A DNA stretch of 64,000 nucleotides, taken from positions 31,322,464 to 31,386,463 of the forward strand of contig NC_043011.1 of assembly GCF_006345805.1 (NCBI RefSeq), read 5' to 3'. The DNA comes from Octopus sinensis (Eukaryota). Below, in pieces: positions 5,733-32,299 of the stretch; within the stretch, counting starts at the first letter, position 1, and each line of letters starts with the position of its first letter. A program made the position numbers and the translations under genes. A model generated the notes under the pieces. That model was not told the origin of the DNA. It did no database searches and worked only from the letters and a program-made list of their open reading frames with translations.

Positions 5733-7180
5733 GTATGTATTTTATAATTGTCACCACTTATACTTTGCATCTACTGTATTTATTCTTATATAAAAAAAAC
5801 ATTTTTGTTTGTCATGGAAATCCTGATCATGTGATATCCACACTGTTGACTTTACAGCAGATACACTTTCATTGTCAACAATGGTAAAGTTCATCATCAT
5901 ATAATGCCTGTTTCCCATGCTGGCATGGATTAGATGGTTTGACTGAAATCTGGTAAGTTGGGGAGCTGCACATGGTTCCGATCTGATCTGGCAAGGTTTC
6001 TACAGTTGGATGCTCTTCCTTATGCCAACCACTCCAAAAGTGTAGTAGGTGCTTTTTACTTGCCATCAGCATAGGTGCCATTGACCTGACACTGACATTG
6101 GCCACAACTATGGTCTCACAAACATGGTATATTGTCAAAGGTTTCAGCCACCTCTCACTGCCTCCGTGAGGTCCAATGCTTTTTATGGGTGTCAGTCAGA
6201 TGGCATTGGCATCCGCCATGACTATGATTTCACTTGGCTCAAGAGGTCTTCTCAAGCACAGCATGTCACCCAATGTTTGAAGGGTGCTTTTAACGTGTCA
6301 GTTACATGACCCTGGCATCAGCTACATTCAAGGTCACTTTTTAATTTGCTTTTTGTTTCATTTAGGATGTGTGAACTTTCTCAGTATATTTTATACAGCA
6401 ATTATAATAAACCTGTCTAAACAGTCCTTTTTCCATACTTTATAGTCCTAACCCTTTAGCATTCAGATTACTTGGACAAGTGCATCATCATCATCACCAC
6501 CACCACCACCACCAAAATTTTCTGGGCAGAAAATTTTGTGGCATTTGTAATTCTGAACTCTTCTATATCCTTTTCACTAAGGTTCCCCTAGTAAACACAC
6601 TCATAGAAAAATCGTACAAGTGTAAGCATTGGCAGAAGCACACTTTCCATTCATATAAATGATAAATAATATAGATAACCTCTTTAGTTTTAATAATTAG
6701 CTTCACGTCTACACCACTGCCATAGACAAATTCTTTCTTTCTACTCCGTTGCATGTTACATTACTACTAAATATCGTTGACGTAAGTTTATCTCTATCTC
6801 TCTACCTCTCCCCCCTCTCTCTCTCTCTCTATCACACACACAATCAAACATACAGACACAAATTTGTCACCTTACTACTAAATATATTTGACATTTGTCC
6901 CCCCCCCCCACACAATTACACATACACAAATGCAGTTATATACACACACTCATACACACACATAAACACTCGCACTCATTAACACAAGCAAACACCCGCA
7001 CATCCCCATATATACAGCATACATACTGTCCCCTAACTATTTTTAGTACTTCCTCCTTCCAACCAATTTTGACGTCATTGCTTATAACGGATTATTTTAA
7101 AAAATACACTCATTATCACTGTGGGCACCATGTAGGCAGTCATCAAAAAGTTTTTGTTCGTCTTGAGGCTGAAAGAGGCT

Positions 7181-7275
7181 CCTTATCTTTCCTGATGAGA
7201 AGATGGCATAATGCAACCTTTATTCTTTCAGAATTAAGAGTATGCTGTCTTCGAAACATGTGTCGAGAGTAAAGG
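7181..7275 (+). ncRNA. Type I hammerhead ribozyme motif, canonical core
   Basis: Stem I CTTTC(7187-91)/GAGAG(7265-69); CTGATGA 7192-98; 12-bp stem II GAAGATGGCATA/TATGCTGTCTTC; GAAA 7253-56; short near-palindromic stem III ACATGTGT; GUC site, cleavage predicted after 7264. Confidence 0.88.
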
Positions 7276-7466
7276 AATTTTGTTAATATCTTCGTTCGAC
7301 TCCATTCTTTCATTTATTCATATAAAAAAAAACACAAATTTCCACACAAGAACCCGCCTGGAGTTTCTACCCTTGACATGTAGCTTCAACCGTGTTTTCT
7401 AATGTGAATTTGCTACCCAGGTATTGGTTAACCGAATTTTCCATGCTAGGATAATTCATTCAACTA

Positions 7467-7503
<37 letters not shown>

Positions 7504-7590
7504 AGAATTCACAAAAAAAACAAAAGATGAAGACAGGTGGTGTACAAAACAAACAGATGTATTAGTATAATGCTCAGGAATTGAAAAAAT

Positions 7591-7628
7591 TCTTTTACAT
7601 TTCGAGCCTATGCTCTTCTACAGAAAGG
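7591..7628 (-). ncRNA. Hammerhead-like motif with variant core CUGUAGA
   Basis: Minus: CCTTT-CTGTAGA-A-GAGC-ATAG-GCTC-GAAA-TG-TA-AAAGA, in a ~190-bp element (7501-7692) between (TA)n tracts. Confidence 0.55.
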
Positions 7629-7991
7629 GACGCAGACAAAAACAAGGAGAGAAAAAAATGTGTGTAGTGGCTAACGATCTATCATGGTGAATGATATATA
7701 TATATATATGTATGTGTGTGTATATGTTTGTTTGTCTGTGTTTGTCCCCTCCCGCCAACATCGCTTGACAACCGATGCTGTTGTGTTTATGTCCCCGTTA
7801 CTTAGCTGTTTGGCAAAAGAGACCGATAGAATAAGTACTAGGCTTACAAAGAATAAGTCCTGAGGTCGATTTGCTTGACTAAAGGTGGTGCTCCAGCATG
7901 GCCACAGTCACATGACTGAAACAAGTAAAACAGTAAAGAGTATAGTCACATTGCACTGAGTAGCTCATCAAAGAACAGTTGTATGTATGTA

Positions 7992-8037
<46 letters not shown>

Positions 8038-8418
8038 CATATATACATATGCATGCGCATGCAACCCACCCCCAATGCTGTATATTAACTGATATTTATC
8101 AAACTTGAGTAGAGAAATACTCTTCAACATCATTTAAACCAACAATATCTAACCCAAATATTCTACCTATTTTACGTTCAACTTGGCCAGATCTGATCTC
8201 TCATGCCTACCTGACAATGTCATTTGAAAAATTAACAACTCCTTCATCAAAATCTTGAAGCTATGAGGTAATACATAATTAATTCAAAACAATGTAGATA
8301 AGTAAGCATTAAAATTTGGGAGAGGAAAGTTAAGGAAAAAAATGACAGGTGAGAAATCAAAGGGAGACAGCAGAGGTTTGCATAGGTGTTCCATATTTAT
8401 CTTTATATTGTGTGTTTG

Positions 8419-8419
<1 letters not shown>

Positions 8420-8452
<33 letters not shown>

Positions 8453-8893
8453 TTAATGTCCGCTTTCCATGCTGACATGGGTTGGACGATTTGACTGAGG
8501 ACTGGCAGACCAGATGGCTCTACCAGCCTCCAATCTGATCTGGCAGAGTTTCTACAGCTGGATGCCCTTCCTAATGCCAACCACTCCGAGAGTGAAGTGG
8601 GTGCTTTTACGTGCCACTGGCATGAGGGCCAGTCAGGCGGTACTGGCAACGGCCATGCTCAAATGGTGTTTTTTACATGCCACCTGCACAGGAGCCAGTC
8701 CAGCGGCACTGGCAATGACCTCGCTCGAATGTTTTTTCACGTGCCAGTAAGGAGACACTGGTAACGATCACGATTGAATGGTGCTTTTTACGTGCCACCA
8801 GCACAGAAGCCAGTTAGCTGCTCTGGCAACGATCATATTCGGATGGTGCTCTTAGCACTCCACTAGCACGGATACCAGTCATCGAATTTGATT
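8420..8893 (-). mobile_element. RTE-LINE 3' tail / RTE-tail SINE with internal ~55-60 bp tandem units
   Basis: (CAT)n plus ctttccatgct..catgggttggac end, same as the tail of RTE copies at 17563 and 54019; similar copies near 5895, 30900, 38610, 40735, 58045, 60808, 63175. Confidence 0.8.
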
Positions 8894-9684
8894 TGTGTAT
8901 GTGTTTTTCATGTGTGAATGGTGCTTTAAAGTGAAAGTTGGATATGCGAATGCACTATAATGCCTTGACATGTGTTATACTGAAACTAACCATCATGAAG
9001 ATCTATCACTAGTTTTAATGATAAAAAGTGAAATTTTGGTGTTGATTTTAATGGAAACTATAAAATTAATGGAAGTTTTGATTTTACTTGTTGACTTATC
9101 AATTTAAACTTCAAAATAAAGATGGAAATTCTTGTTTGAGTTTTTTTTATCAATTTTTTTTTTGAGAAATATTAAATGGATAAAAGTGAGATGTTTACAT
9201 AAACTAAAATTAGGAAAATGGAAAGAAACTAAAAACAAAATTTAGAATCTGAAATTGAAATGTAAACTCTTATAAATTTGCTTAAGAGAAAAAAAAAAAT
9301 CCCTGAAATCTGCATTCAAGCAGATAATTTTATTTATCAATTTAAAAAAAATTTTTTTCTGAATTTCAATTTTAGTTTGAATTTAAACTTGAGACTTTTT
9401 TCCTACTCTGATTTCAGTTTATCAAAAACTTTATATTTTTACAAATTTGAAATTTATAGTTGCAAATATGGCTGTGTGGTGAAGAAGTACACTTTTGAAC
9501 TTTTGGTTTTGGGTTCAATCCCACCGTGTGGCACCTCAGGCAGTTGGGCCGATTAATGCTTTGTAAATGAATTTGGTAGACAGAAACTGGGCGGAAACAC
9601 ATCACATCACATCTCCCCCCCCTCTCTATCTATCGTCTGTCTGTCCGTGTACCCACCTACCTCTCTCTCTCTCAACATACATGC

Positions 9685-9717
<33 letters not shown>

Positions 9718-9982
9718 TGCATACATATATGGACATATGCACTCTGTAAAGTTATTGGCACTAGGAAGGGTATTCTGCTGTAGAAACCATGCCAACACAG
9801 ACATTGGAGCTTGGCACAGTCCACTAGCTCATTGGCTCTTGAAACACCATCCAATACCCATGTCAATATGGGAAGCAGACATTAAATGTTGATGAAGTGA
9901 GGATGATGTGTGTGTATGTATCATTTTGTCGGTTTTTGCCGTCCCTCCTCCCACATCACTGTTTGACAACTGCTGCTGGTTT

Positions 9983-10408
9983 TACAGTTCTGTATTTAAG
10001 AGATGAGGAATTATGTACATTATTTACATTTGATGGATATTTGTCCTCATCTTGTTTGTTGTTAACACGTTTCAGTTGATATACCCTCCAACCTTCATCA
10101 GGTGTCTTGGGGAAATTTCAAACCTGGGTTCTCATTCATAAGGTTATTTTTCAATGTTATTATCATCATCATCATCATCATCATCATTATTATTATTATA
10201 ATCTTGGGATTAGTAGCCTGCGGCGCAGACTACTAACCCCAAGATTCCGAGTTCGATCATCGAAAAATACCTTATGAATGAGAACCCAGGTTTGAAATTT
10301 CCCCAAGACACCTGAAGAAGGTTGGAGGGTATATCAGCTGAAACATTGTGTTAACAACAAACAAGATGAGGACAAATATCCGTCAAATGTAAATAATGTA
10401 AATAATGT
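9983..10408. mobile_element. Head-to-head fold-back of a tRNA-headed, hammerhead-bearing short element
   Basis: Arms 9983-10222 and 10223-10408 are reverse complements apart from a microsatellite and indels; each has ACAC-CTGAnGA-A-GGTTG..CA(A/G)CT-GAAAC..GTGT (10065-10105 -, 10308-10351 +); tRNA-like gcagactactaaccccaagattccgagttcgat at the centre. Confidence 0.8.
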
Positions 10409-10824
10409 GGTGTTGGTTTGTTTACGTCTTTATAACTTAGTGGTTCTGCAAAAATAAATACTGAGGCTGATTTGTTCAAATGAACCCATAAGGCAGTGCT
10501 CCAGTATGGCTGTTGTCCAATAGTTGAAACAAATGAAAAGAATAGAGAAAGTAAGAGAATAAAGAATACTCGTTAATCTTGTCAGAAACAAAATAGTCTC
10601 TCTAAAACTGGTGCCATGATAAAACATATTCAATATACTTTGTGCAGTGGTTGGTGAATATAGGCAATGCAGGATACAGAGGATCTTTTAGTCTTGCTGG
10701 AAACAACACAACCTCTCTAGTACTTTTAAATCTTTAGAACTTTAAAACTTCATAACTCTGAAACTTTTGAATGTTTTGAGATTCTTTCAGAATTTTCGAG
10801 ATTGTGTGAATTGCTCTCTCTCTC

Positions 10825-11235
10825 TTTCTCTCTTTTTACTTGTATCAGTCATTTGACTGCGGCCATGCTGGAACACCGCCTTTAGTCGAGCACTTATAAG
10901 TCGAGCACTTGTAAGCCTAGTACTTATTCTATTGGTTCTCTTTTGCTGAACTGCTAAGTTACAGGGACGTAAACACACCGGCATCGGTTGTCAAGCGATG
11001 TTGGAGGGATAAACACAGACACACAAACATACACACACACACGCATATATATATATACATACATATATACAATGGGCTTCTTTCAGCTCCCGTCTACCAA
11101 ATCCACTCACAAGGCTTTGGTCGGCCCGAGGCTATAGTTGAAGACACTTGCCCAAGGTGCCATACAGTGGGACTGAACTCAGAACCATGTGGTTTGTAAG
11201 CAAGCTACGAACCACACAGCCATTCCTACGCCTAT
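10825..11235 (-). mobile_element. tRNA-derived SINE family A (CORE-like block, internal TG/TA microsatellite)
   Basis: Head ggaRtggctgtgtggt..gcttgctt..ggttc.gagttcagtccc, caccttgggcaagtgtctt block, tail ggcggtgYtccagcatggccgcagtcaaatgactga; roughly 20 copies in window. Confidence 0.85.
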
Positions 11236-12028
11236 ATAATTTTGAATTCTTTTTATATATTTCTGTATATATAAGCGCAGGAGTGGCTGTGTGGTAAGTA
11301 GTTTGTTTACCAACCACATGGTTCCAAGTTCAGTCCCACTGTGTGGAACCTTGGGCAAGAGTCTCCTACTATAGCCTCATGCTGACCAAAGCCTTTTGAG
11401 TGGATTTGGTAGATGGAAACTGAAAGAAGCCTGTCGTATATGTCTAAACATATAAATTTGACATGGGAAATTCTTTCTTGTCTTGCGATTCATGGTCAAA
11501 TGGCTGGGTGGAATTGCGCAAAAAATTACACAGATATATGTAGAATGATTCAGTGGTGATGCTGGGCTTTGTATTTTTTTGATAGCTCCCATGGTTACCA
11601 AGATAATCTACTATAATAATACTAATACTCTTGTGTTTATGAATGAGAAAGGGGTGATGTCATACTTGGTAGTGGGATGATGAAAATTGTATGCTGAAAA
11701 AAATAAATCAAACAATGTTTGAACTCTGTGTGAATATATATGTGTGTATGTAAAAGCGGGTATCTAATATGTATGTGTGTGTGTGTGTGTGCATGCATGC
11801 ATGTGTGGGTGTGCATGTTTATGTGTGTGCGTGTGCATGCGCAATGGCAGTGGGATGGTTCATTATTGTTCGCTTAGTATTTGGGTTTATTTTTTGATTT
11901 GGTTGAATCTTGGTTGGTTATTTTTTTTATTGGTCAGTTATTTTTAGTGTTTTGACAGAAAAAAATCATTCTAAAATTGTTTCTTAACATAAGCGTGCCC
12001 AAACAAGTTGAAGGCTTACACAGAGCAG

Positions 12029-12085
<57 letters not shown>

Positions 12086-12348
12086 CTGTATATGTTTGTG
12101 TTTCTGTGTTTGCCCCCACCAACATCGGTTCCCCCTACCATCGCTCGACAACCGATGTTGGTGTGTAACTTAGCAGTTCGGTAAAAGAGACTGATAGAAT
12201 AAGTACTAGGCTTACAAAGAATAAGTACTGGGATCGATTTTTTTACTAAAGGCAGTGCTCCAGCATGGCCACAGTCAAAAGACTGAAACAAATGAAAGAA
12301 TGAAAGAATATGTGAATATTCATTTTAAAGATTATGTTTTATTTTTAG

Positions 12349-20821: not shown

Positions 20822-21047
20822 TAAGCAAAGTACAATGGCTTCTGAAGTTGCAGATGACGAAAATCTCATAACTGGTCCAGCTTTACTACTCAATGGTCGA
20901 CAAGTGAACTGGTTCTTGGACCCTAATGACCCACCAGAAAACAGTTTGGAATTCATGTTCTATTTTGAAGCACTTCTTGATCAAAAAGACAAATCTTGTA
21001 TGTTTATTCAGAATAATGGTACCACAGCTATATTTTACAAGTGGAAA
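20822..21047 (+). CDS. MYCBPAP: MYCBPAP exon, start of Ig-like (ASH-type) region (KQSTMA...ITGPALLLNGRQVNW...NNGTTAIFYKWK)
   Basis: ccttttAG acceptor, GTATGT donor, 226 nt; GPALLLNG..W and NNGTTAIFYKW match recalled MYCBPAP GPSLLFCG..W and NNGTVAIWYDW. Confidence 0.9.
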
Positions 21048-21261
21048 GTATGTAATATTTCGTTTATATTGGGTTTCTCTTACATTTAGATTATGGCTAT
21101 GTGGAAGGGCTTTTGAGCTGTTAAAAGAGAGGAAAGAAAGGGGAAAGTTTTATATTACTAGAACAACTGGTTTACATGTCTAGGGACAAATTTTATGGGG
21201 AATTTCTTTGTCTTTTATCTGATCAAAGTTAATAAAACTGGATTGTGTCATATGCTAAACG

Positions 21262-32002: not shown

Positions 32003-32120
32003 GCAGTGAGTTCTAATTCAAGCTCAAGTAATCCATTCTGTTTTTATTTATGTCTTCAGACAAGAGATATGTCACTACTTAACCAAATCCTACTGTAACT
32101 CTGTGATTGCTCCTTTTCAG

Positions 32121-32299
32121 GTGTCATTTTACCAAATCAGACAATAGAATTCCCGTTTACTTTTAAATCTCCCCAAATTGGGATTTTCTATGAAGTGTTG
32201 CAGTTTGTCACCTTTCCACAGTTACCTCGTGTTGTTATATCACTACAAGGGATCATTAAACCACTGGACGTATATTCTGTTTCCCGGAGTAACCTATCG
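32121..32299 (+). CDS. MYCBPAP: MYCBPAP exon (VILPNQTIEFPFTFKSPQIGIFYEVLQFVTFPQL...SNLS)
   Basis: ccttttcAG acceptor, GTAAGA donor, 179 nt; GVILP..F.F.FKS...G.F.E...F.T.P.L is a hallmark MYCBPAP block. Confidence 0.92.

What the first reader, a model, noticed from the sequence alone, without database searches (positions are those of the whole stretch)
7181..7275. Fully canonical hammerhead on the sense strand of a MYCBPAP intron
Intact core, G-C closing pair, 12-bp stem II with a 30-nt loop that can form an inner hairpin, GUC cleavage triplet, and stem I extendable to about 10 bp. It is co-oriented with the host pre-mRNA, so it could cut the nascent intron. Stem III is minimal, so activity may need dimerisation.
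Basis: partly seen in the sequence, partly recalled or inferred. Interest (0 to 1): 0.7.

Follow-up and report, generated by a model that had tools for sequence, protein, structure and literature searches.

The report
Penelope retrotransposon hammerhead in an intron
The hammerhead motif is real, but it is the standard end piece of a jumping gene with about 5,000 such motifs across this octopus genome; one truncated copy sits in a MYCBPAP intron, where a lone copy is predicted to cut poorly, so the location is likely incidental.

Summary
The anatomy is as described: a type I hammerhead at 7180-7276, on the sense strand of a MYCBPAP intron (5733-12348). It is not a feature of the host gene. It lies in the 3' pseudo-LTR of a 5'-truncated Penelope-like retrotransposon copy (6524-7468) that starts with the last codons of a GIY-YIG endonuclease and ends in (TA)n. 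The genome holds 5,030 exact matches to the core-plus-cleavage-site pattern (control 2). Longer copies carry a reverse transcriptase with Hydra-clade motifs between two co-oriented hammerheads 3.2-3.4 kb apart. Stem III is a two-base-pair stem inside an 8-nt near-palindrome; the active monomer fold is predicted at under 1%, and no compatible partner copy lies in the window. This copy shows no extra conservation over its flanks. Hammerheads in Penelope-like and Hydra elements are published. Unusual traits: a 52-55-nt domain II supported by covariation (Hydra list maximum 26 nt) and a ~148-nt tail. Cleavage was not tested. This scan noted other Penelope hammerheads in this genome; none by sequence for this family. 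Verdict: new family of a known kind; low interest.

The parts
5733..12348 (+). MYCBPAP intron that hosts the insertion (GT...AG)
   Evidence: gene identity
6524..7468 (+). 5'-truncated copy of a Hydra-clade Penelope-like retrotransposon (3' end of ORF plus pseudo-LTR plus tail)
   Evidence: blastn against 29 other loci; single copy in window; 89-93% identity to best relatives
6513..6538 (.). 12-bp perfect inverted repeat with a 2-nt spacer at the 5' truncation point (small fold-back)
   Evidence: read directly from the sequence
6525..6662 (+). last 45 codons and stop of the element's ORF: end of the GIY-YIG endonuclease with CxxC..E..N..CxH
   Evidence: translation; longer copies; weak Pfam GIY-YIG match on L032 (E 0.0049, below cut-off)
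7180..7191 (+). stem I, 5' strand (7187-7191 proximal, 7180-7184 distal)
7192..7198 (+). catalytic core CUGAUGA
7199..7252 (+). domain II, 54 nt: 12-bp stem, 5' bulge, middle helix and inner hairpin with UUC loop
7253..7264 (+). GAAA, stem III near-palindrome ACAUGUGU (7256-7263) and C17; predicted cut after 7264
7265..7276 (+). stem I, 3' strand
7321..7468 (+). ~148-nt 'tail' between the family's two fixed 3' ends; in full-length copies it continues into the 5' UTR of the next ORF
7469..7500 (.). (TA)n tract at the 3' junction, the likely target site

Best explanation
The motif is the hammerhead of the pseudo-LTR of a Hydra-clade Penelope-like retrotransposon, carried into a MYCBPAP intron by a 5'-truncated copy, and it likely works as a dimer in full-length elements while being predicted to cut poorly at this lone site. 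Shown: repeat membership, element anatomy, tandem pseudo-LTRs with one hammerhead each flanking the ORF, conserved pairing. Inferred: in a read-through transcript of a full element the two ACAURUGU near-palindromes would pair with each other to build two stable stems III, and double cutting would release a 3.2-3.5-kb unit RNA starting about 260 nt before the ATG; reverse transcription primed at a nick in (TA)n would start at one of two fixed sites, and in this copy stopped after about 945 nt. At this locus the motif would be a passenger.
For: 2,312 first-look candidates, 40 scored, full-length matches 90-95% identical on many contigs; 4,441 and 5,030 exact pattern matches, controls 0 and 2. 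Upstream ORF with YRDD-type RT and C-terminal GIY-YIG, IRWL and SDKT at the positions of the Hydra RWK and DKT motifs, colinear by eye with Hydra-1_Obim in the supplement of PMC8557442. Two co-oriented hammerheads flank the ORF in L111 and L113, cut sites 3,191 and 3,431 nt apart; cut site to ATG 256-273 nt in 6 of 7 loci. 23 of 25 two-armed insertions have one long and one short arm, 2 unresolved, as described for PLEs (PMC8557442, PMC11167929). Covariation: 10 of 25 pairs change on both sides against 5.5 in shuffles, 0/500. Active monomer fold 0.2-1.9% in 6 of 6 copies tested; the 8-bp intermolecular stem III adds 4.0-5.6 kcal/mol. PMC4209133 reports no cleavage for a single minimal PLE hammerhead and low cleavage for dimers.
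Against: No cleavage data. RNAalifold did not recover the structure from the 40-sequence alignment. Domain II folds as well or better on the antisense strand in 62 of 81 copies, so folding energy alone does not show the strand. For this copy the lowest-energy dimer uses a shifted, inactive register, nearly equal in energy to the active one (-44.4 against -45.0). No copy with an unbroken full ORF was seen among the 13 longer loci translated. In the anole element PAc, hammerhead cleavage needed the protein and was dispensable for insertion in vitro (PMC11167929), so the processing role is uncertain. Clade assignment rests on motifs, not on a tree.
Confidence: 0.85

Rival explanations
1. The family's long domain II and extended stem I form a tertiary contact or a protein-binding site that makes the ribozyme active as a monomer, so this copy would cut some nascent MYCBPAP transcripts as a side effect.
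For: Core, GUC and all helices intact in this copy; stems I and II form with probability mostly 0.84-1.0; domain II length is held at 52-55 nt with covariation; this copy's four private changes keep pairing or fall in the bulge.
Against: Stem III is 2 bp with a 4-nt loop, active fold 0.9%; the near-palindrome is kept across subfamilies, which fits dimer use (though the search pattern fixed most of it); no loop-loop partner was identified.
Confidence: 0.1
2. The host has co-opted this copy as an intronic ribozyme that tunes MYCBPAP splicing or expression, like the conserved RECK and C10orf118 intronic hammerheads of amniotes.
For: Sense orientation, about 1.5 kb after the 5' splice site; one double change (7226/7230) keeps a pair.
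Against: One motif per 540 kb genome-wide; private differences 4 of 97 nt in the hammerhead against 2 of 120, 1 of 39 and 7 of 131 in flanks (small numbers); copy only about 8-10% diverged from relatives.
Confidence: 0.03
3. The motif belongs to a non-autonomous retrozyme (tandem 150-400-nt circles) rather than to a coding element.
For: Most sampled copies are short and many lack ORF sequence.
Against: This copy begins inside the endonuclease ORF; no short head-to-tail arrays were seen; tandem spacing in L111 and L113 is one ORF length.
Confidence: 0.02

Closest known systems
Hydra-clade Penelope-like elements, including Hydra-1_Obim of Octopus bimaculoides (Craig et al. 2021, PMC8557442; outline, section 11, passages and parts of the supplement seen)
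   Same: Single ORF with RT and C-terminal GIY-YIG; RWK-like and DKT motifs; CxxC and CxH around the conserved E and N; (TA)n insertion; sense hammerhead after the ORF with minimal palindromic stem III.
   Different: RWL/RWF instead of RWK; Asn/Ser-rich linker with no CxCx5C seen; unit 3.2-3.5 kb against under about 3 kb; domain II 52-55 nt against at most 26 nt in the 26 Hydra rows of File S2; hammerhead sequence unlike that of Hydra-1_Obim; clear tandem pseudo-LTRs.
Minimal and palindromic-stem-III hammerheads of metazoan PLE pseudo-LTRs (Cervera and de la Pena 2014, PMC4209133; parts 1-2 of 4 read)
   Same: Type I topology, position in pseudo-LTRs, thousands of solo and inverted copies, G10.1-C11.1, palindromic stem III, larger-than-canonical helix II.
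   Different: [quoted passage not shown]
PAc (Poseidon of Anolis carolinensis; PMC11167929, passages seen)
   Same: Two fixed 3' ends that define an optional tail; hammerhead at the pseudo-LTR.
   Different: Tail about 148 nt against 30-40; hammerhead about 260 nt before the ATG rather than overlapping it; different clade.
Conserved intronic hammerheads of RECK and C10orf118 (PMC3088659, passages seen)
   Same: Type I-like motif in an intron, sense strand.
   Different: Those are conserved across mammals and cleave in vitro; this one is a young high-copy repeat with no sign of locus-specific conservation.

Membership tests
Type I hammerhead ribozyme | Core CUGANGA / GAAA / NUH | tested here: met
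Type I hammerhead ribozyme | Three helices round the core, stem I open | tested here: met
   stem III only 2 bp and weak as a monomer
Type I hammerhead ribozyme | Canonical 4-bp stem II with loop II-stem I tertiary contact | tested here: not met
   stem II is 12 bp inside a 54-nt domain; no Rfam hammerhead hit; a different contact was not excluded
Type I hammerhead ribozyme | Self-cleavage | not testable with these tools
   only contigs were available
Penelope-like element (EN+) | Single ORF with RT and GIY-YIG endonuclease | tested here: met
   Pfam GIY-YIG only weak (E 0.0049) and no Pfam RT hit; copies seen are interrupted
Penelope-like element (EN+) | Partial tandems forming pseudo-LTRs, with a hammerhead in each | tested here: met
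   L111, L113 and partial 5' repeats in L112, L114, L115
Penelope-like element (EN+) | Inverted 5'-truncated partner arm and optional tail | tested here: met
   for the family; this copy is single-armed with the tail
Hydra clade | C-terminal EN lacking CCHH, with CxxC and CxH round E and N | tested here: met
   read from translations
Hydra clade | RWK and DKT motifs | tested here: met
   DKT exact, RWK as RWL/RWF at the same position
Hydra clade | CxCx5C linker | tested here: not met
   Asn/Ser-rich linker in all translated copies; assignment is therefore to a divergent Hydra-like family
Hydra clade | Insertion into (TA)n | tested here: met
Hydra clade | Placement in an RT phylogeny | not tested
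   reference proteins were only seen in a supplement and compared by eye
Non-LTR retrozyme | Short non-coding head-to-tail repeats | tested here: not met

The most novel reading that the evidence does not exclude
This octopus Hydra-like family has evolved a hammerhead with a 54-nt, about 20-bp domain II and an extended stem I that act as a new activating or RT-binding module; with about 5,000 intact-core copies sharing one stem III palindrome, intronic copies such as this one could be cut in trans or with the element's protein and so place a genome-wide load on nascent transcripts.
Probability: 0.08. Interest if true: 0.55.

Novelty: new member of a known kind. Interest (0 to 1): 0.18.

Why it matters
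As most likely read, it matters little: it adds a high-copy Hydra-like Penelope family to the octopus repeat catalogue and warns that intronic hammerheads in this genome are usually transposon pieces that Rfam misses. The family is a usable natural test set: many subfamilies, tandem pseudo-LTRs, two fixed ends 148 nt apart and a long covarying domain II would let one ask what PLE hammerheads do, which the papers read here leave open.

Tried and rejected
Rfam at gathering score (whole window) and at E up to 10 (6900-7600): no hammerhead family. RNAalifold on alignment A2: no useful consensus. Pfam on the two short upstream exons: no hit; exon identity came from tblastn instead. PDB sequence search with the RT piece: nothing. 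Sequencing runs: no RNA holder on record; only contigs, swamped by repeats, so neither cleavage, splicing nor the empty site could be read; a second laying over the gene gave no result, so spliced reads across the intron remain unseen. I first read the match between 7340-7468 and the left end of L034 as a terminal inverted repeat; rejected, because full-length copies show it is an inverted arm of the tail. Naiad clade considered and rejected: the endonuclease is C-terminal. Retrozyme rejected (see rivals). One paper on dimeric PLE hammerheads (recalled, Lunse et al. 2017) is not held and was not read. Literature searches: hammerhead + Penelope-like + octopus gave only PMC8557442; hammerhead + cephalopod + ribozyme + retrotransposon gave that paper and a squid genome paper not opened; 'long stem II' occurred in none of the 15 papers listed of 69. 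Repbase and Dfam could not be searched, so the family may already be catalogued.

Full report
Observation. A strict descriptor found only this site on both strands of the window; 60 Markov shuffles gave 0.32 hits per window of any kind and none with a stem II of 10 bp or more. The overall fold is not unusually stable (z = -1.06), and Rfam has no hammerhead hit at either threshold.

Host gene. Pfam MYCBPAP matches the + strand at 20826-21053 and 32117-32269. That exon retrieved two octopus proteins, 97% and 76% identical, named MYCBP-associated protein-like by their sources. tblastn of the closer one maps the exons in order along the window; the motif lies in the intron 5733-12348, with GT and AG at its ends, about 1.5 kb after the donor. 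Intronic position and sense orientation are confirmed from the protein; spliced reads were not seen.

It is a repeat. A search of the genome (2.72 Gb) with 7050-7350 gave 2,312 candidates, of which 40 were scored; full-length matches were 90-95% identical and lay on many contigs. Exact patterns gave 4,441 matches (control 0) and, for intact core plus NUH, 5,030 (control 2), one per 540 kb. Against 29 other loci the window copy runs from 6524 to the (TA)n tract at 7469-7500. It is the only piece of the element in the window and is 89-93% identical to its best relatives.

The repeat is a Penelope-like element. The copy begins with the last 45 codons of an ORF. Longer copies extend this into a GIY-YIG-type endonuclease, an Asn/Ser-rich linker and a reverse transcriptase with YRDD. 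Pfam support is thin: GIY-YIG at E 0.0049, below cut-off, and no RT family. The N-terminus has IRWL and SDKT, at the places of RWK and DKT, which PMC8557442 gives as Hydra-clade marks together with CxxC and CxH round the endonuclease E and N and insertion into (TA)n (section 11 read). By eye the protein is colinear with Hydra-1_Obim in that paper's supplement but clearly a different family. The CxCx5C linker of Hydra elements was not seen, and no tree was built. Of 7 loci fetched for their intact 5' ends, L111 and L113 carry co-oriented hammerheads on both sides of the ORF, with cut sites 3,191 and 3,431 nt apart; L114 and L115 have a truncated 5' repeat with cut sites 3,531 and 3,488 nt apart; the upstream cut site lies 256-273 nt before the ATG in 6 of 7. 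None of the 13 longer loci translated had an unbroken ORF. In 59 loci, 93 arms ended at about 7469 (49), about 7320 (36) or elsewhere (8); after merging overlapping loci, 23 of 25 two-armed insertions had one long and one short arm and 2 were unresolved (the first 29 loci were picked by similarity to 7050-7350, which favours long arms). This matches the inverted arms and tail of PLEs (PMC8557442) and the two RT start sites of PAc (PMC11167929, passages), with a tail of about 148 nt rather than 30-40.

Structure across the family. From 83 distinct motifs in the loci held I aligned 40 chosen to cover subfamilies. For the 25 pairs named, 88.7% of cells pair against 85.1% in shuffles and 10 pairs change on both sides against 5.5 (0/500 each); 7 of the 12 stem II pairs do so; slid controls give 27-42%. 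Relatedness inflates these figures, and the core and stem III were fixed by the search pattern, so their invariance is circular. The middle and inner helices of domain II have weaker support (3 of 9 pairs, 171/500). In 81 family motifs (two from another family left out) proximal stem I pairs 1-5 hold in 79, 81, 81, 77 and 73, domain II is 52-55 nt, and the antisense strand folds as well or better in 62. RNAalifold failed to recover the structure. Cleavage triplets were GUC 45, GUA 24, GUU 13, GUG 1 of 83. The 26 Hydra rows of File S2 of PMC8557442 have domains II of at most 26 nt; a non-Hydra element there, PLE-X1_sMoe, has one of about 52 nt, so the long domain is unusual for the clade but not without precedent.

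Mechanism. In the monomer, stems I and II form but stem III has a pair probability of 0.013-0.015 and the active fold 0.9%; five other copies give 0.2-1.9%. Two copies co-fold at -60.8 against 2 x -25.9 kcal/mol with swapped stems I. The 8-bp intermolecular stem III in the active register adds 4.0-5.6 kcal/mol. In this copy, ACAUGUGU also allows a shifted, inactive register of nearly equal energy (-44.4 against -45.0), and the lowest-energy dimer uses it. PMC4209133 (parts 1-2 of 4 read) found no cleavage for a single minimal PLE hammerhead and low cleavage for dimers, and proposed processing of PLE precursor RNA. PMC11167929 found protein-dependent cleavage that was dispensable for insertion in vitro. 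I therefore infer dimer-dependent processing of tandem transcripts into unit-length RNA as the family's function, and little cutting at this lone copy. Relaxed scans of the window and the 10 kb upstream found no other motif with a compatible stem III.

Selection on this copy. Against 25 close copies, private differences number 4 of 97 nt in the hammerhead, 2 of 120 before it, 1 of 39 after it and 7 of 131 in the tail, four of these being one insertion. There is no excess conservation, though the numbers are small and the four changes keep pairing or lie in the bulge. Presence at the orthologous site in other species could not be read from the contigs.

Novelty. Hammerheads in PLE pseudo-LTRs, in the Hydra clade and in an octopus Hydra element are published. 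I found no paper on this family in the searches listed under Tried and rejected; Repbase and Dfam were not available; the supplements of the bioRxiv retrozyme preprint (passages only) were not seen. Earlier notes of this scan describe other Penelope hammerheads in this genome, and a look-up by sequence found none for this family. Verdict: new member of a known kind, interest 0.18.

Noticed in passing
window 7501-7690 (-), core at 7623; sister at 51431 (+): A second, very abundant repeat abuts the (TA)n tract and carries a small hammerhead-like motif with one core mismatch.
   Followed up: no
window 10101 (-) and 10312 (+): Inverted pair of intact CUGANGA...GAAAC cores with a 6-bp stem II after one extra base, in the same intron; no clear NUH plus stem I; likely another Penelope-type family.
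   Followed up: partly
window 51705 (-) and 51813 (+); 2411 (+); 13150 (-); 27267 (-): Further hammerhead-like cores, one of them an inverted pair.
   Followed up: no
L012:2081-2207 and L035:1787-1912: A different repeat family with a 59-60-nt domain II and the same ACAUAUGU stem III palindrome, so long domains II are not confined to this family.
   Followed up: partly
G000:C8702:565406-568961 (L057, L059): A second MYCBPAP-like gene, 26% GC against 38% for the window, about 40% identical in protein, compact, with no DNA match to the window gene; possibly from another organism in the assembly.
   Followed up: partly
L031-L036, linker between RT and endonuclease: A long Asn/Ser-rich low-complexity linker stands where Hydra elements have a CxCx5C motif, yet the family still ends in (TA)n.
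   Followed up: no
window 6513-6538: 12-bp fold-back at the 5' truncation point, perhaps a vestigial inverted arm.
   Followed up: no
window about 410-1070: A direct duplication of roughly 200 nt, about 440 nt apart, ending in (TA)n, seen by eye; could be another pseudo-LTR tandem.
   Followed up: no
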